A stretch of 64,000 nt of DNA from NCBI RefSeq assembly GCF_016026235.1, contig NZ_CP065613.1, one strand, 5' to 3'. A model generated the notes under the pieces. It was not told where the DNA came from and searched no databases. It saw nothing but the letters and a program-made list of their open reading frames with translations. Of the stretch, positions 26,347-42,886 are shown in pieces. The DNA is from Escherichia coli. Its GTDB lineage: Bacteria; Pseudomonadota; Gammaproteobacteria; Enterobacterales; Enterobacteriaceae. The position numbers were made by a program, and so were the translations under genes. The first letter of the stretch is position 1. The number at the start of each line of letters is the position of its first letter.

Positions 26347-26564
26347 CAGAACCTCGCCAGTTTATAGCCCGGCGTCCCCCGTCGCCGCGCAGCCAGAGTC
26401 GCAAGGCGACGTTCCCACTCCTGCCGCCCCTGTCGGATCTCGGATAAGTTTTCCATGGTCATCTGCTGACCATTAAAAGTAATGGACTTTCCGTCCAGCA
26501 CTGCCATTTCCGCATTGATATAACGATGGATCATGGCTTCAATATCATTCTGGTTCACAACCAT
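26346..26564 (-). CDS. head-tail joining protein W-like
   Basis: Small ORF after terminase; C-terminus RRRGTPGYKL like lambda W. Confidence 0.65.
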   Translation of the reverse strand: MVVNQNDIEAMIHRYINAEMAVLDGKSITFNGQQMTMENLSEIRQGRQEWERRLATLAARRRGTPGYKLARF

Positions 26565-28657
26565 CCTCCGGAAGTCACCCATGGGTTTTCTTCATCAGGC
26601 ACCACTTTTTTTCGTTTCTTTTTTTTAACGGACACGGATACCGGCTCCGGCGAGGCTGACAGTCCGGCATCGTCCCTGACACGCTCCAGCCAGGTTTCCC
26701 TGCATGCCCATTCCGGCGCATCCGGCCACTGAATTTTCTCGTAACCATGCAGAATGACCAGAGCCTCGGCATACACCATCAGGTCAAAAGCTTCGTTGGC
26801 ACCTCGACCCGGCTTACTCCATTTCCCGTCACTGCTCCGCTCTTCATACGTCAGTTCGTCGTAAAACCAGCTCCCCAGCCAGTCAGGGAAATGCACATAG
26901 CCGGGACCTGGCGAGTCACGCCATAACGCGTTATTCACCCGGTCTTTCAGGGCATCCGTCTGAAGAAGCCAGAGCGGCACATCACCTGCGGCCTGCGCCC
27001 GTCGGCCCGTTCGTCCGGTGTTATCAGGGAATGTACGGGTGATCAGTTTTGCGCGCCGGATGCTGTCGCCCTTAAACAGGTAAATACGTTTACCAAGGCC
27101 ATCACGACGGCAACGACGCCAGAATTTATAGGCATTATCAGTGACCCCGTCTTCACCGCCGGAGTCCACCGCCATTGCCATCAGTCGCATTTGTTGAGAA
27201 GGATCGGAGGCCAACGGCCAGCTTTTATGAAAAACATCCGTCAGCAGGACATCCCAGTCCTCAGGATAACCAGCAGGATCAATTCGCAGGCTTTCTCCGT
27301 TGTTGTCACAACGCAATGACTGCGTGATGTTGTAACGATCAATAATCCAGCGTTCGCCACGGCAACCATAACCCGTTACCTGAACCACAAAACGGCGATG
27401 ACGTCCCGCCTGCACATCCACTGTCGCCGCCAGGAAATTAACACCATCCGGCACGCAGCGGGGAGGAACAGGCTCTGCCCGCTGCTCAAGCAGTTCACTT
27501 TTTCGTTGCTCCATGCTGGCGCGGGGAAGATAAGGTAATCCCCAGTCGGTGTTGATAACCGCCCTGAGTGTTTCTTCACTTCCGGTTGTCTCGTATTCCT
27601 GTTCTGCAGTAAGCAGTTTGTAAACGAGTTGCGAGAGTGTCTGGTAAGCAGCTGCCGGACCCTCCATCCAGAATGACGCAATACGTGAACGCCTGGGATC
27701 ACCATAACGACTGCCATCCGCATTGATGGATTCACCATCCCGCAACCAGACCCCACGTCCGTTCAGCTCACGTTTTTGTTCAGGCATAATCCGTCCTGAA
27801 CAGGAAGGACACTGAATATAAGCCGCCTCACTTGCCAGCACGGGATCGGCAATATCACGGAAACCAGCAACCACATCGCCGCAGGGCTGAAAATACTCAC
27901 CACAGTGTGGACAGGGCCAGTACCAGCGACGGCGATCGCCACGGTTATAGAGCGACAGTATCCCCGTGGTTGGTGGAGCCTCATGCGGTGAAGTCCGTCG
28001 CCATTTCACATCCTTCACATCCCTGCCGGGGGAACTCTCCACCAGCGTCATACCACTGGACATAAATGTTGTGGTACGTTTTGAGGCAAGAGAGAAAGCA
28101 TCCCCCTCACCATCAATATCTTCCGGAAAACGGTCATAATCCGTCAGCGCGACGCATTTATAATCTGATGAGGACATGATATTGACTGACGGCCAGCCGA
28201 TTTTCAGGTAGTTGCCAGCAAGGAATGTTCTGTCATAAACGTTGTTGTCATTTTTGTTCGGACTCAGGCGACTGACCACTTCCGGGCTGACGCGAAACGT
28301 TCTGGCGAGTCGTTTTTTGGAGTGTTCGCGGGCTTTTTCCTCCGTCATCTGAATGATCAGCATATCAGCAGGATCGCAAATCACGTTGTAAATCACCCAG
28401 CCGTCAATCAGGCCGATAGTCTTGCCGGTTCGTGCCGGGCCAACAAATATCACTGCGTCGTATTCACGCGAGGCCAGGCAGTTCATCGGCTCAATAACAT
28501 ACGGTGCCACCAGCGGATCCCACGGGACTGAGTTCCCTGCCCCCATGGGCACCCGCATATACTGAGCAACGGCATCAGCAACCCGCATTCGTCTTGGTGC
28601 GCGAAGGATATAACCTGAATCGGTTCGTGCTGCCTTTGCGGTTTCCTGATTCAGCAT
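26555..28657 (-). CDS. terminase large subunit (lambda A-like)
   Basis: 700 aa with Walker A FVGPARTGKT. Confidence 0.95.
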   Translation of the reverse strand: MLNQETAKAARTDSGYILRAPRRMRVADAVAQYMRVPMGAGNSVPWDPLVAPYVIEPMNCLASREYDAVIFVGPARTGKTIGLIDGWVIYNVICDPADMLIIQMTEEKAREHSKKRLARTFRVSPEVVSRLSPNKNDNNVYDRTFLAGNYLKIGWPSVNIMSSSDYKCVALTDYDRFPEDIDGEGDAFSLASKRTTTFMSSGMTLVESSPGRDVKDVKWRRTSPHEAPPTTGILSLYNRGDRRRWYWPCPHCGEYFQPCGDVVAGFRDIADPVLASEAAYIQCPSCSGRIMPEQKRELNGRGVWLRDGESINADGSRYGDPRRSRIASFWMEGPAAAYQTLSQLVYKLLTAEQEYETTGSEETLRAVINTDWGLPYLPRASMEQRKSELLEQRAEPVPPRCVPDGVNFLAATVDVQAGRHRRFVVQVTGYGCRGERWIIDRYNITQSLRCDNNGESLRIDPAGYPEDWDVLLTDVFHKSWPLASDPSQQMRLMAMAVDSGGEDGVTDNAYKFWRRCRRDGLGKRIYLFKGDSIRRAKLITRTFPDNTGRTGRRAQAAGDVPLWLLQTDALKDRVNNALWRDSPGPGYVHFPDWLGSWFYDELTYEERSSDGKWSKPGRGANEAFDLMVYAEALVILHGYEKIQWPDAPEWACRETWLERVRDDAGLSASPEPVSVSVKKKKRKKVVPDEENPWVTSGGWL

Positions 28658-29150
28658 TACTCCTCCTGCTGTAATTCCTCCTCATCATCCGCACCTGCTT
28701 CAGTCACCCGCAGGGCTATCTGATCGCGCAGATCATCAATAATGGACTGAACACGGCTCACAGCGGCAGGCTGCAGACCGCAGTCACGTTCAAGAATATC
28801 CGGTAATGTCTCCAGCACCTGCACGACCGCTTTTGCCCAGATGGCAAACTCCCGTCTGACATCACTGGCCGGAATGAGTTGTGCCGTTTCCTGTTCGAAC
28901 TTAAGACGCTCACGTTCAGACTGATACCAGGCTTTGCGCTCATGCGCGTCCATTTCGCCTTCTGCAACCGGCGGTGGTAATGCCAGAAATGCCGACACAA
29001 TATCAACCACCCGATAAAGCTTGAGGTTGCTTTCATGCCCCCTGCAACGGGTAGATTTTGCAGCCTTGCCGCAGCAGTCTGGCGATGTACACCTGACAGT
29101 GCCGCCAGTTGACTGATATTCAGCGTCAGATTTTTTAACTCTCGATCCAT
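28657..29150 (-). pseudogene. terminase small subunit Nu1-like, apparent frameshift
   Basis: Nu1-like HTH N-terminus is in ORF 28758..29150; C-terminal part ending at terminase start is in another frame (28657..29268 ORF). Confidence 0.65.
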
Positions 29151-29320
29151 ACCCGCTCCAGAATGTTTTAAACATGCATCTTGCGAACAACTTTAGGCAA
29201 ACGGTGTTAGTGATGAACAAAAAACAATCAAAACCGACAGCACAAAAATAAAACCACTGTAATATCAATACATTACAGTAGTGGTGATGACGAATGAAAT
29301 TTCAAAAACTAGCCTTTTTC

Positions 29321-29337
29321 CGCGCCGCTCCCGCCCC
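29321..29337. other. candidate cos site
   Basis: Minus-strand GGGGCGGGAGCGGCGCGG resembles lambda cosN GGGCGGCGACCT; upstream of Nu1. Confidence 0.35.
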
Positions 29338-29823
29338 GTGGCAGGCCACCCCACCGGGAGGACCCGTCAGCCTGACAGCCATGACGAACGTCTGATACAG
29401 CGCCCTGCATGAATGACATCGGGATAATCCAGAAAGGAATAGCATCGTACCCACAAGAATCAGTGTAAGTGTCCTGTTTCTTCCACCCCCGCACAGGACT
29501 GGCGAGCATGAGGGACAAACCCGCGAACCATAAACGCGGTAAAAACCCGGTGTGCATCGTTTTTGATTATTCCCGCACACTCGCGCAGAAGGAGTTCCCC
29601 GTCGGGCTACGGTCATGGTTAATGCGGGAATACAGCGACGATACAGCGCATGATGTGTCAGGCCTGAATACCTTTATCCGTTAAAAGGGATATCAGTTAA
29701 GTTATCCCGTGTAGGGTATAAGCCATTATCAAGCCCACCCGTAGATGGACTTTGTAATGGATAGCTGTTGCTCAGTTCTCGTAATGCTTTGATTTTTCCG
29801 ATAACGCAGTTTTGCGTTTGCCA

Positions 29824-30345
29824 TCAGCACGCGATATCGAGAGTCAACTGCAGTTGCTCGCGCCAGTACTCGACATTTGCTTCAATAACCGGCTTATCCC
29901 ATCGCCAGCGAGCCATCTCTCTTGCCCCATTGCTGGCTTTTGATTTCCGGTCATCGCGAATGCGACATGCTTGCTCATATTTCTGCTGCTCAGTCAGTTC
30001 ACCGCGAAGCAGACTATCAATGTGCAGGTCGCACCATACGGAGAATTTCGGATCGCACCATCTTGCAAAGGCAACTGATAACTTTGGATGCTGCCATGTT
30101 CCGCCGCCCCTGTCCTTTCGTGCCTTGCTTGTTTTTACATACCCGGAATCACGGGTATGTAGAATTTTCGATGGTTCACCTGAATAAACCTCATCCAGAG
30201 CTCTAACGTATTCGAGAGTTTCAGCGTTGGACAACCAGTGATCCAGACGCTTCCCGAAACGTTTTGCAATATCAGTGGCATTAATCCAGCCATCAGTATT
30301 GAAGCGGATAGGTTCGCCTTTGTAATTCAGTGGAACGATATTCAT
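29824..30345 (-). CDS. KilA-N domain DNA-binding protein
   Basis: 173 aa, MNIVPLNYKGEPIRFNTDGWINATDIAKRFGKR. Confidence 0.6.
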   Translation of the reverse strand: MNIVPLNYKGEPIRFNTDGWINATDIAKRFGKRLDHWLSNAETLEYVRALDEVYSGEPSKILHTRDSGYVKTSKARKDRGGGTWQHPKLSVAFARWCDPKFSVWCDLHIDSLLRGELTEQQKYEQACRIRDDRKSKASNGAREMARWRWDKPVIEANVEYWREQLQLTLDIAC

Positions 30346-30547
30346 AGCGTCTTACCTTTTAGAAAGATGAGCCTGTTCGCACAGAAAAGCCGCCCCGAGA
30401 TGGTCGCCACCATATACGGCAGTTCTCAGGCTCAGCTTTCTGAAAGACTCGGGATTGTTACGCGCTGCGATGCGCGGTTTACTGCGGACATATAAAAGCC
30501 CCGCAAGTGCGAGGCTCATTAAATTGACTTTGTGATTTGCAAAAAAA

Positions 30548-30985
30548 TTATTTCAGGCATTGCGTCCTGATGTATTCCTGCAGGTAGTTAACCTGCGCGG
30601 TTATCCTGTCGATTCCACTTCGGAGACGGTAATAATTGAGTTCAGCATCTGCTGTAAGTCCTGGGCTTTCTCCATAGCCCATGCTGCTGGCTCCGGTCGT
30701 TGACTTTGCACAGGTGGCGGCGACTTGCAGGCGCTTACGACCAGCAGAAACATCAGCACGGAGACTTTCGATAGTCGCGTTAGCATCAGCAAGCTCCTTT
30801 GTGTATCTGGCGTCGAGTTCTGCTACATCACGTTGACGCTTCTGCATATCAGAGATGATGGATGTGGCCTTATCGCGCTGCTCTTTGTAGGTAATGGCGT
30901 TATCACGGTAATGATTAACAGCCCATGACAGGCAGACGATGATGCAGATAACCAGAGCGGAGATAATCGCGGTGACTCTGCTCAT
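30548..30985 (-). CDS. i-spanin Rz
   Basis: N-terminal TM segment then coiled coil; ATGA overlap with endolysin stop. Confidence 0.8.
30601..30792 (-). CDS. o-spanin Rz1, embedded in Rz in another frame
   Basis: Lipobox LVVSAC followed by proline-rich [16 protein letters not shown]. Confidence 0.6.
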
Positions 30986-31515
30986 TGATCTATCCCCCAA
31001 CAGGCTAATGCGCTTTCCTGGTCACGACGAATAACCTGTCCATAGCAGTTATTTGAACGTATGCGGCAATCGCGCCCAACATCTTTTATCCACCAGCGAA
31101 TCGCCTCGCATGCGCCCTTACGATCACCGGCATTCAGCCGCTTATAAAACGTCGACGGGAAACACTTACCGGGGCCAATGTTATAGGGGCAAAATGACGC
31201 TATACCCGCTTTTTGTGGTTCGGTCAGTGGTACTTTAATATTGCGCTCCACCCATGCCAGCGCCTTATCACGTTCAATGGCGTTAACCTGGTCGCATTTT
31301 TCCTTCGACAGTTTCATACCGGGAAAAACGGGTTTACCATCCACCATCGTGGCACCCCGACAGATGGTCCAGATGCCGGAACCATCGCGGTATGCCGTAG
31401 TGTGGTTACCTTCTTTTTCATCCAGAAACTGGTCGAGAATATCAGGCGCAGGCGCACCGATAGCAATCAGTGCCAGAACGGCAGCCGACAGGCCATATCT
31501 GATTTTTACGTTCAT
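30982..31515 (-). CDS. SAR endolysin (lysozyme)
   Basis: 177 aa; hydrophobic N-terminal signal-anchor then T4-lysozyme-like core. Confidence 0.85.
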
Positions 31516-31836: not shown

Positions 31837-32367
31837 TTACTGAAGAGATTTACCCTCCTCAAAAATCTTCACAAAATTCCTGCGAGTAACTTCAATGCAA
31901 TAATCGTAAAACGCCGCAAACTGCTCATCGCGGCGTTTTTTTTCATCTTCAGAAGGAATCAGCACCGACAATTTTTTCTCCAGTTTTTCAATGGGCGATT
32001 CAATATCATCTTTTTCTGACCGCAATGCCGTCGGTGGCGTCTTCAGAGAACCAGTAATTCTTCCCGGTAGCTTTCCTTTGTAGGTTATCCACACATTCTG
32101 CGCCTCTAAAATTATGGGGCGCTTTTCCGGCGACTGCTCATCCCCTTCACATAACCCGGCAGCAACATCCAGGAATACCTGTCTGATTCTCATTCTGGCC
32201 GCTGCCTCATAAAACTCCAGCGCGGCACCTTCAACACGGTCCAGCGAGATGTCCAGGTCAAAAATTTCACCGTCAAAGCGTTTTTTGTCCCGTAACGCTA
32301 AAGTTACCGCAACTTTATTCTCAAAATTGCGGATCCCTTTCACAATCAGTTCATAGTTTTGTGTCAT
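31837..32367 (-). CDS. hypothetical protein inserted between holin and endolysin
   Basis: 176 aa; GGGGAG RBS about 9 nt upstream; starts 5 nt after holin stop. Confidence 0.6.
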   Translation of the reverse strand: MTQNYELIVKGIRNFENKVAVTLALRDKKRFDGEIFDLDISLDRVEGAALEFYEAAARMRIRQVFLDVAAGLCEGDEQSPEKRPIILEAQNVWITYKGKLPGRITGSLKTPPTALRSEKDDIESPIEKLEKKLSVLIPSEDEKKRRDEQFAAFYDYCIEVTRRNFVKIFEEGKSLQ

Positions 32368-33679: not shown

Positions 33680-34054
33680 GGAGTTTACTCACATCTGACA
33701 AAATCAATATAAACAGCCCCTCCGGAGAGGGGCTGGAGAGTGGCGCTATGTGCCATTGCATGGTGCCGGGTGCCTCCCGGTGAATTCAGTACCAGCACCT
33801 GAATCCGCGATTATCCCATATACCTACTCGCTGATTGCCCCTCCGCACAGGGGGATTCACCATGCCAGTTTCTTTTAACAAACTCCCCGCAAACCAGACA
33901 ACAGTCAACCGCCTGAATTGTGAAGTATTTAAAAATTTCTCCCGCTAACTGATACCCGGCTAACAGTCTGGCGTTTTCTTTTTCAGCAACGGGAAAGCAA
34001 CAACCCTGTTATCGTGTCGTCTGCTCTTCCTGATAAGCTAATGGCGGTTTGTGA

Positions 34055-34130
34055 TGGTGGCCCTTGCTGGATTTGAACCAGCGACCTGGCGATTATGAGT
34101 CGCTCGCTCTCACCACTGAGCTAAAGGGCC
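34055..34130 (-). tRNA. tRNA with CAU anticodon (Ile2-type or Met)
   Basis: 76-nt cloverleaf: acceptor GGCCCTT/AAGGGCC, T-loop TTCAAAT, encoded CCA; close to recalled E. coli ileX. Confidence 0.85.
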
Positions 34131-34273
34131 GGGAGCAGAATAATAACGGTCCGTAATTAATTCCGCAATAAAAAACCCGCTCGGCGGCGGGTTGTAGAAA
34201 CTCTTCTAACGTCAGGCATAAAACGCCCATAGTTATGACGAATTTACCACAGATTCCGGAAAAATCAACCTTG

Positions 34274-35095
34274 TTACCTAGTTACCTTTTTTAACTGCCG
34301 CTCAGCCCATGCTTCTTCAATATCAAACCGGGTCACCAGCGCATCATAGAATTTCTTAACTGTTTTTTCCCATGACGCGCGTGTTATCTGGTTTGTCACC
34401 TCGCATATAGCATTAAATGCCTCCGTTGATGGTAGTCTTTCATAGCCACGACCACCACAACGCTGGCAGTCTCTGATAACAGGCATACCACGTTTTACCG
34501 ACTCTTCACGATGAATGGCGACACCACGCCCACGGCAATCCTTACAGGCGGTGGAAACCTCACCCTTTCCGCCACACTCCGGACAGGCAACTTTTACCAC
34601 CTCCCTGACTTTTTTCCATTCTTCCCAGTAAGACGGATACACACCTTTCGTACACTTTGCCCATACCGGCGGCTTACCATCCGGATACTGGACCTTGTTT
34701 GTAAAAACTACGCTTTCAATAAATTTTTCCCCATAGCAACAAGGGCACTGCTTTTTACTCGCTGCGCTGCGGGCATAATCCTCAAAAGCGTACGAAGCCA
34801 TAATGCGCATCACTACCGGTTTTATTTCTGCCGGAAGTTTTCTCAACGCCGCCACACGATCGCACCGACTGAGTGCATAATCAGCCAGTAATTCTGTTGC
34901 CCGCGCCCTGTCATTCATACTGATGCCCATTTTCCCCAGGAACGCAGAAAACCCCATCTCAGCCCGATTCTGTGTCATGCCCTGCGCGGCCATCACATCA
35001 GTGATACTCAGCGCATCTTTTGACGTTGAGGCCGATGCATCGGTCAGGCAAGGGGATTTTGGGGAGTAGTATTTCGGTAAATCTTCCAGTTTCAT
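34274..35095 (-). CDS. late antiterminator Q-like protein
   Basis: 273 aa with Cys clusters CPCCYG and CPECGGKG; followed by tRNA and lysis genes. Confidence 0.8.
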   Translation of the reverse strand: MKLEDLPKYYSPKSPCLTDASASTSKDALSITDVMAAQGMTQNRAEMGFSAFLGKMGISMNDRARATELLADYALSRCDRVAALRKLPAEIKPVVMRIMASYAFEDYARSAASKKQCPCCYGEKFIESVVFTNKVQYPDGKPPVWAKCTKGVYPSYWEEWKKVREVVKVACPECGGKGEVSTACKDCRGRGVAIHREESVKRGMPVIRDCQRCGGRGYERLPSTEAFNAICEVTNQITRASWEKTVKKFYDALVTRFDIEEAWAERQLKKVTR

Positions 35096-39263: not shown

Positions 39264-40178
39264 TCAGAATGTCAGTTTGTCACTGGATTTACCGAATTTG
39301 TCAGACATGGCTCCCAGGCCAGCCAGGACATCGACCTGTCGCTGTCGCCCACCTCCGGGAGCGGCTGGCTGTTGCCAGAAGTCTTCGAAGTGACGATCGG
39401 GTCCAAAGAACGTCGCTGCCTGCTTCACGAACTGTGTGCCGTTATTTCCTGTGGCACGTATCCAGGCGGCATACCGCTTCACGCCATCAAGCATGGTCTC
39501 CGGTTTTATTCCCTCCCTGATACGGGCTTTCCAGGCTTTGAAGGCTGCGGATTTTGAGTTACCACCAGCACGTTTTGGATATTCCTGCCAGGCCTGTTCA
39601 AATTCCGGTGAATATTCCTGTCGGGCAGAACGCGCTGGTGCAGACGCGTCAGCGGATGCGCCAATAGTGTTTTTACTCTCTGTAGTATTCTCTGAAGTAA
39701 TCTCTGTTGTATTCTCTGTAAGATCGAAATTGGTTTTCCCTTCTCCGCGGCGAGGGGTTTCCCGTGTCCGCGGTGAAGGCTTTCCCTCCTCCGCGAAATT
39801 GGGTTTTACAGTTTCCCGAAAACGGGTTTCCCCATTTCGGGAAAACTGATTGTTTTCATTGATAATTTCATTAAGGCGCTCACAATCTATACGGTAGAAC
39901 ATTTTGTGCTCAAGACGCTTGTTGGTTTCAACCAAAATGCCTCTGGACACAAGATGCTTACGCGCTACAGCCTGTTGTTCAAATGTAAGTCCGGTTTCGT
40001 GTTGTATCTCTTCACGCGTTTTATGTACGCCTTCCGCTGCATGTGCTTTATCCTGCCAGTAAAAAATCTGACCAAAGAAAATAACAGCGTGCGGACTTCC
40101 CATGTATTTAACGAGCCCAGGGTAATAAGCAACCGGATGTCCAAAATCGAGCAGAAGATCAGACGGACGCATAGCCAC
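39264..40178 (-). CDS. replication initiation protein (lambda O-like role)
   Basis: Contains iteron array in its middle; precedes DnaC/DnaB-like genes. Confidence 0.7.
   Translation of the reverse strand: MAMRPSDLLLDFGHPVAYYPGLVKYMGSPHAVIFFGQIFYWQDKAHAAEGVHKTREEIQHETGLTFEQQAVARKHLVSRGILVETNKRLEHKMFYRIDCERLNEIINENNQFSRNGETRFRETVKPNFAEEGKPSPRTRETPRRGEGKTNFDLTENTTEITSENTTESKNTIGASADASAPARSARQEYSPEFEQAWQEYPKRAGGNSKSAAFKAWKARIREGIKPETMLDGVKRYAAWIRATGNNGTQFVKQAATFFGPDRHFEDFWQQPAAPGGGRQRQVDVLAGLGAMSDKFGKSSDKLTF
39676..39845. repeat. origin-like iterons inside replication gene
   Basis: Three ~12-bp CTCTG(T/A)(A/T)GTA(T/A)T units, then GGTTTTCCCTTCTCCGCGG / GGGTTTCCCGTGTCCGCGG / GGCTTTCCCTCCTCCGCG, then inverted TTTCCCGAAAAC units. 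Confidence 0.6.
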
Positions 40179-40392
40179 CTCCCAGGCGTTTAAACATTTT
40201 TCCGGACTGAAACGCCACCAGCGGATAACTCAGGGTATGAGTACGTCCCTGAACCTGGCAGACAACCTTCTGGCTTTCTGTATTGACCAGGCAAACCCGC
40301 AGAACGTGGCCGTTGCTGGTGGTGAACCACTGCCCCACTCGGGGGCAACGGTTGTATCGGTGATACAGGGAATTAACGATGCGGCGAATCAT
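40159..40392 (-). CDS. hypothetical small protein
   Basis: 77 aa; ATGA-coupled to Rha stop. Confidence 0.35.
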   Translation of the reverse strand: MIRRIVNSLYHRYNRCPRVGQWFTTSNGHVLRVCLVNTESQKVVCQVQGRTHTLSYPLVAFQSGKMFKRLGGGYASV

Positions 40393-40952
40393 GGACGCAC
40401 CTCCTTGTCAGAACCATTCAGCCTGGAATCAACAAGTGCAGCACCAAAAACAGCATCACCTACACGGTCGTACAGTTTGCTGGCCAGCGGAGATTCAACA
40501 GCCTTAAGCATTGGGTAAAGCTGGCTTGTCCAGATTTGATGGATTTCACGCAAATGCAGGTATACGCCTCTGGCGTTTTGTGCGACAGATGACATGTCAG
40601 CCGCACCAGCTCCTGATAAGCTCCTCTCCATCTGGTTAAAGGCATTGATGTATGCCTCTTTGAACCGGGCGGCACGTTTACCAGTGAAGCCCATAGCAAG
40701 GAAGGCGAAGCCGTCGCGGGTGATTTGGTAGCAGGGAAGTTTGCGAGTACCGCCGTTGGGCTGGCGTACCAAAATTGATGTCTCCGCAAAATTGCGGGCA
40801 CAAAACTCTGGAGAACAATCCAAAATGCGGATCTTTTTCAGAACATCGTCATGACGTTTAGAGAAGAAGTTGGCAACAGCCAGGGATGAAGTAACAGCCT
40901 GACCATCAACGATGGCAATTTCAGGTTGAGTGAGGGTTGGGATCGTAGCCAT
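40389..40952 (-). CDS. Rha-family phage regulatory protein
   Basis: 187 aa from MATIPTLTQPEIAIVDGQ; C-terminus DGFAFLAMGFTGKRAARFKEAYINAFNQME. Confidence 0.7.
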   Translation of the reverse strand: MATIPTLTQPEIAIVDGQAVTSSLAVANFFSKRHDDVLKKIRILDCSPEFCARNFAETSILVRQPNGGTRKLPCYQITRDGFAFLAMGFTGKRAARFKEAYINAFNQMERSLSGAGAADMSSVAQNARGVYLHLREIHQIWTSQLYPMLKAVESPLASKLYDRVGDAVFGAALVDSRLNGSDKEVRP

Positions 40953-41264
40953 GATGGCAGCCTCTTTGGTGATTTTTAATAACTCACCACCAAAGCTTCT
41001 CACGGCAATAGGTGGTGAGACGTACAGGGGTGAGAAACCGGTCACCAAAGAACCCGGCCCAACCGAAGTTGGCCCTGCACGCCCCACCATAATTTGGGCG
41101 TAATGCTGCTCATGACACAAAAAAACCGCAAGAGCGCGGTTGTGCGCTTTGGTGAATTCCGGGTTCTCACGCCCGGCACCCGCTTTATAAGGTGCGGAGA
41201 CAGTGTAACGTCCCGAAATTGCAGAATCAATATCAAAATGTTGTAGCTGTGGACAACGCGAAGC

Positions 41265-41288
41265 CTTGTTGTTATTGTTTACAACAAG
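41265..41288. promoter_or_regulatory. palindrome CTTGTTGT-N8-ACAACAAG upstream of the 41307 operon
   Basis: Perfect 8-bp inverted repeat about 20 bp before GAGGAAG RBS. Confidence 0.4.
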
Positions 41289-41306
41289 AACCAGAGGAAG
41301 CTTTAA

Positions 41307-41594
41307 ATGCCATCCAGACTGTATAAACAGTTCATCCGTCATCTCGGTGAATCTGAATACATACGAATCCGCATATGGGAAGTGGAGCCTGCTGTATTGG
41401 GTAGCCAGCACAACTACAAATACAGCATGGCTTATGTCGTTGATGGCATGTGTGTGATGCGTTACGACAACGAACGGGGTAAAGGCGATCACAAACACAT
41501 TGGTAGTCAGGAAGTCAGCACCAGCTTTGTCACCATTGAACAACTGCTCGCTGATTTTCTGGCTGACGTTGAATCCATCCGCAGAGGTATCTGA
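41307..41594 (+). CDS. hypothetical protein, first gene of TA-like pair
   Basis: 95 aa; RBS GAGGAAG; stop 1 nt before next ATG. Confidence 0.6.
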   Translation: MPSRLYKQFIRHLGESEYIRIRIWEVEPAVLGSQHNYKYSMAYVVDGMCVMRYDNERGKGDHKHIGSQEVSTSFVTIEQLLADFLADVESIRRGI

Positions 41595-41595
41595 C

Positions 41596-41955
41596 ATGAG
41601 AACCGTAACAATCCGAATCGAGTCAATGGATAATTTCACGGCTGATGTGCTGTCTGCGTTCCAGGAAGCAGCTACCGGAGCAAAAGCAACCAGAGAAAAC
41701 GTTATTTCATTTCCTGACTGGCAAATGATGCATAAGGTACTGACACCAAAACGCATGGACATTCTGATGGCAATGACTGGTGCCGGAGAAATGTCCATCC
41801 GAAAAATTGCAGCCCTGGTTGGACGTGATGTAAAAAGCGTGCATACTGACGTGACCGCACTCATCAGCAACGGTTTACTGGAAAAAAGCGAGCGCGGAAC
41901 GTCATTCCCGTATGACGACATCCACTTTGATTTTACGCTGGGCAAGGCGGCGTAA
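41596..41955 (+). CDS. winged-helix DNA-binding protein, second gene of pair
   Basis: 120 aa; HTH-like MSIRKIAALVGRDVKSVHTDVTALISNGLL. Confidence 0.6.
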   Translation: MRTVTIRIESMDNFTADVLSAFQEAATGAKATRENVISFPDWQMMHKVLTPKRMDILMAMTGAGEMSIRKIAALVGRDVKSVHTDVTALISNGLLEKSERGTSFPYDDIHFDFTLGKAA

Positions 41956-42172
41956 TTTTTCGTATATACCGTGCCGTCATTCCGGCGGCGCTTCACACTC
42001 CACAAAATCACGCCTGAACAACCACAACGGGCTGAAACATTCGTACGGATAGCCGTCACGCAGGTAAATGACTCGCTGCGTTTCAGACTCCCAGCGTATA
42101 ACGTGGACACGACGCCCCCTTCCGTCACGGAACCAGCGATTGAGGACTTGCATAAATTACCCGTAAACATTG

Positions 42173-42886
42173 TCACACCTTCCAGCCAGTAGCCTGAAAC
42201 AGGCCCATTCTCGGGTGATACCAGCGGGTACCACGCTGAACGGCACCACACATCATGTGATGAAACGCCTTCAGAAACGGTTCCACAGCAACAATTTCAC
42301 GACGTGCCAGTAATCCATCTGGCGTCAAAAATTCATGAGTGTCTGTCGGGATGTTGTATGCATTTACAAGCGTGCGACATTTCGCATCTGACATACCGGT
42401 TTTTGCTTTCAGCTGGCGATATCCGGCATAGCCCTCTCGAATGGTACCCTTTTTGATTTGCTCAACTGTTTCGGCTACGTGGCTGATTTTTTCTTCCACC
42501 TGAGTGATCCGTTTCTGCTGACGAACAGCCTCGAGCGCCATTGCGGCCACCATTTCGATTTCGCTCATTGGTTTGCGGATCTGTTCTTCCAGTTCGCGCC
42601 AGCGATCTACCAGGCGAGCAGTGAATTCAGGACAGAGCTGTGCGACGACAATGATGCTGTCGCGCTTACCTTGTTCTCCTTCAAACAGGTAATGCTCATA
42701 TTGAACTTTAAAACCTAAGTTATTGATTCTTTCGGAAACCTCAATTTGAGGAGACCGGACAACGCCACCTTTGGCTAATGTTTCAATAGTGCGTTTCACA
42801 TTGTCATGACGCTTACCCACCAGTTCTGCGATCTCAACGCTGGTCATGGATGCTTTGTCGTTAAAAATTGCGGTGTTCACTGCCAT
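42173..42886 (-). CDS. phage antirepressor/Rha-like regulatory protein
   Basis: 237 aa from MAVNTAIFNDKASMTSVEIAELVGKRHDNVKR; GGAG RBS. Confidence 0.65.
   Translation of the reverse strand: MAVNTAIFNDKASMTSVEIAELVGKRHDNVKRTIETLAKGGVVRSPQIEVSERINNLGFKVQYEHYLFEGEQGKRDSIIVVAQLCPEFTARLVDRWRELEEQIRKPMSEIEMVAAMALEAVRQQKRITQVEEKISHVAETVEQIKKGTIREGYAGYRQLKAKTGMSDAKCRTLVNAYNIPTDTHEFLTPDGLLARREIVAVEPFLKAFHHMMCGAVQRGTRWYHPRMGLFQATGWKV

What the first reader, a model, noticed from the sequence alone, without database searches (positions are those of the whole stretch)
29824..30345. KilA-N domain protein between spanin genes and cos
A 173-aa KilA-N-type DNA-binding protein sits in the slot lambda uses for bor, outside any obvious regulatory module. 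It could be a moron regulator or anti-host factor.
Basis: inference. Interest (0 to 1): 0.3.

Follow-up and report, generated by a model that had tools for sequence, protein, structure and literature searches.

The report
Late-operon KilA-N gene cassette
The gene is real and encodes an ordinary, already-annotated phage KilA-N DNA-binding protein, but it sits in a swappable cassette with a terminator and a folded RNA leader that probably keep it silent until late lytic growth.

Summary
Observation confirmed. ORF 29824-30345 (minus strand, 173 aa) matches Pfam KilA-N (E 1.5e-23). Its model has the APSES/Mbp1 fold, and a C-terminal helical hairpin is homologous to the ORF11CD3 module of P22 Rha. 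It lies between Rz/Rz1 and the DUF1441/gpA terminase genes of an E. coli lambdoid prophage, co-oriented with the Q-dependent late operon. The gene is not new: copies 99% identical are annotated "KilA-N domain-containing protein" in phages and E. coli genomes.

The gene is not a free-standing moron. It is the cargo of a roughly 0.8 kb cassette (29724-30517). The cassette runs: intrinsic terminator, small hairpin, long covarying leader hairpin that occludes the ribosome-binding site, coding sequence, 3' hairpin. The same framing precedes rha in P22, hkbK in HK620 and gp73 in HK97. Elsewhere it precedes pRha, ANT, HNH and T5orf172 genes. No Rfam family matches the leader.

I infer late-only, tightly limited expression of an Rha-like DNA-binding accessory protein. 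Its biological role remains untested. Interest is low for the gene and moderate for the leader.

The parts
29824..30345 (-). Coding sequence of the 173-aa KilA-N / ORF11CD3 protein, the cargo of the cassette
   Evidence: ORF list; Pfam; PHROG 129 'transcriptional regulator' E 7.6e-58; dN/dS 0.03-0.16; 99.4-99.6% identical copies annotated 'KilA-N domain-containing protein' in E. coli genomes
30004..30327 (-). KilA-N (APSES-type) DNA-binding domain, residues 7-114
29839..29982 (-). C-terminal ORF11CD3-like helical hairpin, residues 122-169
   Evidence: Pfam PF10549 E 0.0099, below cutoff; PF10549 listed among precomputed Pfam hits of most homologues; hhalign against Rha-type proteins gives prob 89%, E 2.3e-6, residues 130-169 to P22 Rha 133-173; model shows two long helices 116-137 and 141-171
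30494..30517 (-). Intrinsic terminator hairpin plus U-tract, the 5' edge of the cassette, 30 nt after the Rz stop
   Evidence: Terminator scan; stem invariant with variable loop in 5 phages; annotated as a rho-independent terminator in HK544; present upstream of almost all cargo types
30477..30491 (-). Conserved box ATGTCCGCAGTAAAC following the terminator
   Evidence: Related box (ATG/GTG-YCCGCR) after the terminator in enteric and Pseudomonas cassettes; function unknown
30461..30476 (-). Small hairpin A (CGCGC-ATCGCA-GCGCG)
   Evidence: Predicted in the minimum-free-energy fold; stem changes are compensated in the HK544 type (ATGCGT/ACGCAT), read from alignments
30355..30448 (-). Long leader hairpin (apical GGCG-loop hairpin at 30400-30413). 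Its 3' base pairs with the Shine-Dalgarno AAGG at 30355-30358, 9 nt before the ATG
   Evidence: RNAalifold: 23 pairs, 15 compensated; covariance model R1 scores 113.7 bits sense against 16.8 antisense, the only two matches at E<=1 in the window, on opposite strands of this one locus; 96.6% of cells paired against 79.4% in shuffles and 35-50% in slid controls, 19 of 23 pairs with double changes; SD mostly paired in all 27 distinct variants
29782..29794 (-). IHF consensus WATCAANNNNTTR 30 nt after the stop codon
   Evidence: Pattern search: 7 matches in the window against 2.5 expected; relevance untested
29724..29760 (-). 3' boundary element: hairpin AGTCCA-TCTACGGG-TGGGCT followed by TGATAATG
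   Evidence: Shared downstream of five different cargo genes, with compensatory changes in one (GGCGCA/TGCGCC); homology to Salmonella phage SPN3UB ends at 29724
30548..31000 (-). Context: Rz i-spanin, with Rz1 embedded at 30601-30792, the last lysis genes upstream
   Evidence: Pfam Phage_lysis E 1.5e-34 and Rz1 E 2.4e-20
34274..35095 (-). Context: Q antiterminator, whose modified polymerase would read through the cassette terminator
   Evidence: Pfam Antiterm PF03589 E 6.2e-55; terminator-like sites downstream of it at 34193..34174 and 33735..33714
26555..29268 (-). Context: DUF1441 (small-terminase position, frameshifted here) and gpA-type large terminase downstream
   Evidence: Pfam; 1-nt deletion relative to intact copies

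Best explanation
The ORF encodes a two-domain protein of the phage 'Bro network'. It has an N-terminal KilA-N (APSES-fold) DNA-binding domain and a C-terminal ORF11CD3 helical hairpin, the module also carried by P22 Rha. The gene is the interchangeable cargo of a conserved cassette of about 0.8 kb at the lysis/packaging junction of the late operon. In order, the cassette holds an intrinsic terminator, a small hairpin, a roughly 95-nt covarying hairpin whose base pairs with the Shine-Dalgarno sequence, the coding sequence, and a 3' hairpin. All of this is shown. The following steps are inferred. No promoter lies between the terminator and the start codon, so the gene should be transcribed only by Q-modified, terminator-resistant polymerase during lytic growth, and should be silent in the lysogen. 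The leader further restricts translation, or needs processing (for example by RNase III) to allow it. Such double insulation suits cargo that is harmful if leaky; other cargoes in the same cassette are HNH and GIY-YIG-type nucleases. The protein most likely binds DNA as an oligomer and acts like Rha, as a dispensable late accessory factor. Its target and its benefit to the phage are unknown.
For: Identity and fold. Homology of the C-terminal module to Rha. Purifying selection. The same gene sits in the same slot with four unrelated packaging systems: E212 and SPN3UB (P22-like), HK544 (HNH/HK97-like), Cronobacter prophages (Sf6-type and Terminase_2/6C), and this window (gpA). Terminator. Leader structure with covariation and strand specificity. 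The leader lies directly upstream of the start codon in all 88 sources searched, that is the window and 87 loci with a close homologue. The same leader precedes P22 rha, HK620 hkbK, HK97 gp73 and pRha, ANT, HNH_3 and T5orf172 cargoes, and the model match ended on, or within 9 nt of, a start codon at all 49 hits (exactly on it at 46). A shared 3' boundary. The SD is predicted to be paired in 27 of 27 variants, with different anti-SD and SD sequences in the window and HK544 types. No sigma-70-like promoter on the coding strand. The Q gene lies upstream on the same strand. P22/phi80 Rha is a late-operon gene detrimental to lytic growth without IHF (PMC4936722, citing Henthorn and Friedman 1995).
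Against: No expression data were examined for this gene, so late-only transcription rests on the absence of a consensus promoter in a simple scan. The U-tract of the window's terminator is short (UUUU-A-U-A-U). The pair counts come from an alignment fitted to the model, and many sequences are close relatives, though at least five deeply different variants keep the helices. The Pfam ORF11CD3 score is below its cutoff. Homologues with 48-68% identity sit elsewhere, so the slot is not a family-wide constant. They lie beside the CI-type repressor in P. aeruginosa prophages, inside tail or baseplate clusters, and at about 7.2 kb from the left end of the phage D3 record. No DNA target, partner or phenotype is known for any KilA-N/ORF11CD3 protein.
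Confidence: 0.55

Rival explanations
1. Classical moron. The gene is expressed from the prophage on its own signals and regulates host or prophage genes to the benefit of the lysogen, as bor does in lambda's equivalent slot.
For: The junction after Rz is a known site of accessory genes (bor in lambda, my knowledge). The gene is dispensable and patchily distributed: 154 of 5426 complete E. coli genomes carry it. It has a DNA-binding fold.
Against: No promoter-like site lies on the coding strand between Rz and the ATG. The terminator is upstream of the gene, not downstream. The SD is sequestered. The gene is co-oriented with the late operon downstream of Q. In E. coli LF82 prophage Gally the slot-equivalent rha was 'unaffected' in macrophages (PMC9928086).
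Confidence: 0.12
2. Antirepressor. The protein binds and inactivates the repressor of this or a co-resident prophage or satellite, giving cross-induction.
For: RefSeq labels P22 rha 'anti-repressor'. Bro-network proteins include true antirepressors, and other cargoes of the same cassette carry the ANT/KilAC domain. A 57%-identical homologue in P. aeruginosa prophages lies divergently next to the S24-type repressor gene.
Against: No ANT, P22_AR or AntA domain is present. Late expression after Q comes after the lysis decision has been made. No experiment links any KilA-N/ORF11CD3 or Rha protein to repressor binding. The RefSeq label appears to be annotation by name.
Confidence: 0.13
3. Selfish cassette. 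The cassette is a mobile or homing-type unit, and the KilA-N protein is a nuclease-less DNA-binding relative of homing endonucleases. It is kept because the cassette spreads, not because it helps the phage.
For: The identical 5' leader and 3' boundary frame HNH_3(+AP2) and MUG113/T5orf172 nuclease genes. Cassettes occur in tandem. The family appears at unrelated genome positions together with a terminator and a structured leader. The window-type leader occurs in 541 E. coli genomes, against 154 for this cargo.
Against: The protein has no nuclease domain. Purifying selection is strong (dN/dS 0.03-0.16) over both domains. Cargo exchange could be explained by ordinary homologous recombination at the conserved flanks.
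Confidence: 0.15
4. BstA-like abortive-infection defence. The protein senses replicating DNA of a superinfecting phage and aborts the infection.
For: BstA has a KilA-N-like N-terminal domain and is prophage-encoded (PMC8585504). There is a weak PADLOC hit to candidate PDC-S22 over 30 residues of the KilA-N core.
Against: The protein is 173 aa against 307 aa for BstA, and nothing matches the BstA C-terminal domain. PADLOC returned only that weak hit to candidate PDC-S22 and no other defence model. BstA is expressed in lysogens, according to that paper. Here the expression signals point to the lytic phase.
Confidence: 0.04

Closest known systems
P22 / phi80 Rha (P22 ORF201)
   Same: It has the same slot directly after Rz/Rz1 in the late operon. 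It has the same terminator and the same structured leader (R1 99 bits, E 5.7e-21). It carries the same C-terminal ORF11CD3 module and is of similar size.
   Different: Its N-terminal DNA-binding domain is Phage_pRha, not KilA-N, and whole-protein BLASTP is not significant. Rha has a genetic phenotype, inhibition of lytic growth in IHF-deficient hosts (PMC4936722). This protein has none on record.
HK620 hkbK and HK97 gp73
   Same: Both are KilA-N proteins in the same post-Rz slot and are preceded by the same leader family (133.9 and 40.1 bits). hkbK-type proteins also carry ORF11CD3.
   Different: They share only 27% (hkbK) and 47% (N-terminal domain of gp73) identity with this protein. A GenBank record of a related phage labels the gp73-type protein KilA-N-P63C, so it appears to have a different C-terminal module.
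P1 KilA / fungal APSES domains (Mbp1, PCG2)
   Same: They share the KilA-N/APSES alpha+beta DNA-binding fold.
   Different: P1 KilA carries the KilAC/ANT C-terminal domain. APSES proteins are large eukaryotic transcription factors. Identity to Mbp1 is about 17%.
int-alpA RNA (Rfam RF02996)
   Same: In distant homologues (Pseudomonas prophages, L014, L018) a terminator is followed by an int-alpA-type RNA directly upstream of the KilA-N/ORF11CD3 gene. The layout is the same, and the 3' tail reaches the ribosome-binding site.
   Different: The window's leader does not match int-alpA, and model R1 does not hit the Pseudomonas leaders. int-alpA has an 8-bp helix that encloses two hairpins. The enteric leader is one long interrupted helix with one apical hairpin.
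Lambda bor
   Same: It is an accessory gene at the Rz-to-cos junction (my knowledge of the lambda map).
   Different: bor is a lipoprotein gene on the opposite strand and is expressed from the prophage. The gene here is a co-oriented DNA-binding protein gene with no promoter of its own.
RBS-sequestering hairpins of T4 late and homing-endonuclease genes (e, soc, I-TevI)
   Same: A 5' hairpin occludes the Shine-Dalgarno sequence of a phage accessory or nuclease gene to restrict the time or amount of translation (my knowledge; the analogy is).
   Different: In T4, relief comes from a late promoter inside the hairpin. No promoter-like element was found inside this hairpin, so how it is relieved here is unknown.

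Membership tests
KilA-N domain (Pfam PF04383) | Profile match above the curated gathering score | tested here: met
   83.1 bits against a cutoff of 23.8, E 1.5e-23, residues 7-114 covering profile positions 4-106 of 107
KilA-N domain (Pfam PF04383) | APSES-like alpha+beta fold | tested here: met
KilA-N domain (Pfam PF04383) | Binds DNA | not testable with these tools
   Inferred from the fold only
ORF11CD3 domain (Pfam PF10549) | Profile match above the gathering score | tested here: inconclusive
   The single sequence scores 16.5 bits against a cutoff of 25. However, PF10549 is listed for most homologues, and hhalign to Rha-type ORF11CD3 proteins gives prob 89%, E 2.3e-6
Rha family (P22 ORF201 / phi80 Rha) | N-terminal Phage_pRha domain (PF09669) | tested here: not met
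   No pRha hit; P22 Rha itself hits pRha at E 1.7e-22
Rha family (P22 ORF201 / phi80 Rha) | Late-operon position after the lysis genes, with the shared leader | tested here: met
Rha family (P22 ORF201 / phi80 Rha) | Inhibits phage growth in IHF-deficient hosts | not testable with these tools
   A genetic phenotype; the primary paper was not available
Phage antirepressor (ANT/KilAC PF03374, P22_AR, AntA) | Presence of an antirepressor effector domain | tested here: not met
   Only KilA-N and weak ORF11CD3 were found at E<=1
BstA abortive-infection proteins | KilA-N-like N-terminus plus the BstA C-terminal domain, about 300 aa | tested here: not met
   173 aa; PADLOC gives only a 30-residue hit to PDC-S22; BstA architecture taken from PMC8585504
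Moron (Hendrix/Juhala sense) | Own promoter upstream and terminator downstream; expressed from the prophage | tested here: not met
   No promoter-like site on the minus strand in 29000-31200; the terminator is upstream. The expression part of the definition was not tested
int-alpA RNA (RF02996) | Covariance-model match at or near the gathering score | tested here: not met
   No hit at E<=1 in 29200-30650. The leaders of distant homologues score 35.0-35.5 against a gathering score of 35.8

The most novel reading that the evidence does not exclude
The terminator, the SD-occluding leader hairpin and the 3' hairpin define an uncatalogued family of exchangeable expression cassettes in enterobacterial temperate phages, including P22, HK620 and HK97. 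These cassettes deliver Bro-network DNA-binding proteins and HNH or GIY-YIG-type nucleases into late operons. They keep the cargo silent except under antiterminated transcription, and their conserved flanks act as the recombination arms that drive the known domain and gene shuffling of this protein network. The leader would be a new cis-regulatory RNA family, with the same layout and role as int-alpA RNA.
Probability: 0.4. Interest if true: 0.55.

Novelty: already known. Interest (0 to 1): 0.33.

Why it matters
The gene itself adds nothing new. It is an annotated member of a large family of phage DNA-binding accessory proteins with no known function. What could matter is the framing. A single conserved leader and boundary pair surrounds rha, hkbK, gp73 and many nuclease or Bro-type genes. 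This gives a concrete handle on two old questions. One is how potentially toxic accessory genes are tolerated inside essential late operons. The other is how Bro-network genes are shuffled between phages. It also flags probable start-codon mis-annotations, such as P22 rha. Finally, it offers a compact natural insulator element that can be tested directly with reporter fusions.

Tried and rejected
- NCBIfam gave no family.
- A PDB sequence search gave only a chance hit.
- PADLOC gave only a 30-residue hit to a candidate system.
- Rfam on the window's leader gave only noise (mir-10, RsmY).
- Model R1 did not detect the Pseudomonas int-alpA-type leaders, so homology between the two leader types is unproven.
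- BLASTP of the protein against P22 Rha was not significant. Only profile methods link the C-termini.
- The 55-aa ORF 30352-30519 (minus strand) spans the whole leader and is annotated as a hypothetical protein in some phages. I considered it as a coupling leader peptide and rejected it. It has no Pfam hit, its ATG lies in the terminator stem and is absent in the E212-type context, and the frame is closed early in the HK544 type.
- I looked for a T4-style internal promoter inside the hairpin, reading the sequence by eye. The junction TATATG/TATAAG resembles a -10 element, but no -35 or extended -10 element accompanies it, and the scan found nothing.
- An IHF consensus lies 30 nt after the stop codon and another lies inside P22 rha. 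The positions do not correspond, so I draw no conclusion.
- The primary Rha paper (PMC177009) is not held.
- The epsilon34, BTP1 and LF82 papers say nothing specific about this slot.
- The chromosome flank is 100% identical to E. coli FDAARGOS_943, but that strain carries a different prophage at the site. The exact source genome was therefore not identified.

Full report
**1. The observation**

The window has an ATG-initiated ORF of 173 codons at exactly 29824..30345 on the minus strand. Pfam assigns residues 7-114 to KilA-N (PF04383, E 1.5e-23, 83.1 bits against a cutoff of 23.8). It also gives a sub-threshold hit to ORF11CD3 at residues 122-169 (E 0.0099). PHROGs places the whole protein in phrog_129, 'transcriptional regulator' (E 7.6e-58), and its C-terminus also matches an Rha-like phrog. 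NCBIfam has no model for it. Pairwise dN/dS against three diverged homologues is 0.03-0.16, so this is a protein-coding gene under purifying selection.

**2. Genomic context**

- All neighbours are on the minus strand: a P21-type holin, a DUF1327 gene, lysozyme, Rz with embedded Rz1, then this gene. Next comes a 556-bp gap, followed by DUF1441 (small-terminase position), a gpA-type large terminase and a lambda-family portal.
- A Q antiterminator gene (PF03589, E 6e-55) lies upstream at 34274-35095 on the same strand and is followed by terminator-like sites.
- The flanking chromosome (torZ-torY-cutC-argS) is E. coli.

**3. Fold**

An AlphaFold model built on 30 homologues has mean pLDDT 88.

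- A profile-profile comparison aligns residues 130-169 with the ORF11CD3 module of P22-type Rha proteins (prob 89%, E 2.3e-6).

**4. The gene is already known**

- Phage EC.P3 encodes a 99.4% identical protein, and Salmonella P22-like phages (SE1, SE10, SF11, ST-35 and others) encode one at 98.8%. HK544, ev099 and Emek encode one at 85%.
- A copy at 80% nucleotide identity or more occurs in 154 of 5426 complete E. coli genomes. The listed copies are annotated 'KilA-N domain-containing protein'.
- In E212, SPN3UB, HK544, ev099 and Cronobacter prophages it occupies the same post-Rz slot. The downstream packaging genes, however, are of unrelated types.
- More distant homologues (48-68% identity) are elsewhere. 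They lie next to the S24-type repressor in P. aeruginosa prophages, in myovirus baseplate clusters, just before gpJ, and at about 7.2 kb from the left end of the phage D3 record. The slot is thus typical of enteric lambdoid and P22-like phages, not of the whole family.

**5. What surrounds the gene**

*Terminator.* Thirty nucleotides after the Rz stop there is an intrinsic terminator at 30517..30494. Its stem is invariant and its loop varies among five phages, and it is annotated as a terminator in HK544.

*Leader.* Between the terminator and the ATG lie about 150 nt with no sigma-70-like promoter on the coding strand. Thirty-seven distinct versions of this leader align well.
- RNAalifold on 16 of them predicts one long interrupted helix with an apical GGCG-loop hairpin. 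It has 23 pairs, 15 of them with compensatory changes.
- The window's own minimum-energy fold shows the same structure (z = -2.9).
- A covariance model (R1) gave only two matches at E<=1 in the window, both at this locus. The sense strand scores 113.7 bits at 30343-30467 and the antisense strand 16.8.
- On the model-fitted alignment of 32 distinct sequences, 96.6% of cells are paired. The figure is 79.4% in column shuffles and 35-50% when partners are slid. Nineteen of 23 pairs show double changes, and 0 of 500 shuffles reach the observed values. That alignment is fitted to the structure and many rows are related. Even so, the window, HK544/P22, L052, L054 and Cronobacter types differ at most helix positions and still pair.

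*Ribosome-binding site.* The base of the helix pairs with the Shine-Dalgarno sequence. In 27 of 27 distinct variants the SD is predicted to be mostly paired (median probability unpaired 0.16). The window type uses UCUUU:AAAGG and the HK544 type uses CCUGCC:GGUAGG.

**6. The leader is not specific to this gene**

- All 88 sources searched, that is the window and 87 loci with a close homologue, have the leader ending on the start codon.
- R1 also hits the leader of P22 rha at 99 bits. The aligned ATG is at 39644, whereas the annotated start at 39575 lies inside the helix.
- R1 hits HK620 hkbK at 133.9 bits and HK97 gp73 at 40.1 bits.
- Eighty viral contigs were fetched with a short leader pattern. 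R1 confirmed 49 leaders among them, and each ends on, or within 9 nt of, a start codon (exactly on it at 46).
- The cargoes include pRha+ORF11CD3, KilA-N+ORF11CD3, pRha with another C-terminus, a protein with an ANT domain, two MUG113/T5orf172 proteins, HNH_3(+AP2) proteins, other KilA-N variants and a 75-aa protein.
- Cassettes can be tandem.
- A 3' element, a hairpin followed by TGATAATG, recurs after five different cargoes, with compensatory changes in one. In the window it lies at 29760..29724, exactly where homology to SPN3UB ends.
- The window-type leader occurs at 601 places in 541 of 5426 E. coli genomes. The 40 places listed have no annotated feature under them.
- Rfam 15 has no family that matches it.
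- In distant homologues (Pseudomonas, L014, L018) the equivalent position holds a terminator followed by an int-alpA-type RNA. It scores 35.0-35.5 bits against a gathering score of 35.8. R1 does not detect those leaders.

**7. Mechanism**

*Shown.* The protein has two domains. The cassette has the anatomy described above. The leader covaries and is strand-specific. The SD is predicted to be occluded. Several cargo types share the same framing. Q lies upstream.

*Inferred.*
- With a terminator in front and no promoter behind it, transcription should depend on Q-modified polymerase. The gene would then be a late lytic gene and silent in the lysogen.
- The leader keeps translation low or makes it depend on processing or unfolding. 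RNase III is a natural candidate for a helix of about 28 bp with internal loops, but this was not tested.
- The nuclease cargoes suggest that the point of the design is to contain harmful products.
- By analogy with Rha, the protein probably binds DNA as an oligomer and is dispensable. Rha shares the slot, the leader and the C-terminal module, and is detrimental to lytic growth when IHF is absent (PMC4936722).
- The actual target and benefit are unknown.

**8. Rivals**

- *Lysogen-expressed moron regulator.* This fits the slot but not the signals.
- *Antirepressor.* The annotation of P22 rha and the position of the P. aeruginosa homologue suggest this role. However, no antirepressor domain is present and the timing is wrong.
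- *Selfish, homing-type cassette.* Nuclease cargoes in the same frame and the scattered insertion sites favour it. Strong purifying selection and the lack of a nuclease domain argue against it.
- *BstA-like defence.* The architecture does not match.

**9. Verdict**

The 'moron outside any regulatory module' part is not supported. The gene is an ordinary, already-annotated member of the KilA-N/Bro network. The one thing worth carrying forward is the shared structured leader and cassette framing, which no Rfam family matched and which I did not find described in the papers I could search.

Noticed in passing
window 28657-29268 (minus strand), around 29036-29040: The DUF1441 gene in the small-terminase position is split between two reading frames. 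Pfam profile positions 1-31 fall in ORF 28758-29150 and positions 29-146 in ORF 28657-29268. Intact E. coli copies at 99.4% identity are 1 nt longer, and a GGGGG run lies at the frame switch. This is either a frameshift pseudogene, meaning a defective prophage, or a sequencing error.
   Followed up: partly
window 40389-42251 (minus strand), with RNAs at 41008-41094 and 41119-41195: A second Bro-network gene lies in the early region: a 620-aa ORF with Phage_ASH and Phage_pRha domains. Rfam C4 antisense RNA (83 bits) and isrK (64 bits) matches are embedded in it. This resembles the P4 eta/CI immunity-RNA arrangement described in PMC10111431.
   Followed up: no
L099 (phage P22, NC_002371) 39522-39646: The annotated start of P22 rha (39575) lies inside the conserved leader helix. 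The covariance model aligns the start codon to the in-frame ATG at 39644. The true protein is therefore probably 178 aa rather than 201 aa.
   Followed up: partly
window 33705-33894 and 34058-34130 (minus strand): An STnc100 sRNA match (132 bits) and a tRNA gene lie between the Q gene and the lysis genes, in the leader of the late transcript.
   Followed up: no
window 29253-29282 and 29263-29275: An AT-rich 13-bp-stem hairpin and an IHF consensus site lie immediately upstream of the DUF1441 gene. They may be part of cosB. cosN was not located.
   Followed up: no
window 31837-32367 (minus strand): A 176-aa DUF1327 gene is inserted between the holin and lysozyme genes of the lysis cassette.
   Followed up: no
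window 30352-30519 (minus strand) and the opposite strand in SPN3UB (L002 1000-1158): Short 'hypothetical protein' ORFs annotated in several phage records overlap the structured leader on one strand or the other. They are not conserved and are probably mis-annotations of the RNA element.
   Followed up: partly
window 54000-64000 and L003 (E. coli FDAARGOS_943): The chromosomal flank (torZ, torY, cutC with MicL at 59811-60118, argS) is 100% identical to strain FDAARGOS_943. That strain carries a different, IS-riddled lambdoid prophage at the same insertion site.
   Followed up: partly
L008-L011, L014, L018 (loci of distant homologues): int-alpA RNA (RF02996) is named for its association with int and alpA genes. 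Here it sits directly upstream of KilA-N/ORF11CD3 genes inside phage tail clusters and at the lysis/terminase junction, each time preceded by a terminator. Its scores are just under the Rfam gathering threshold.
   Followed up: partly
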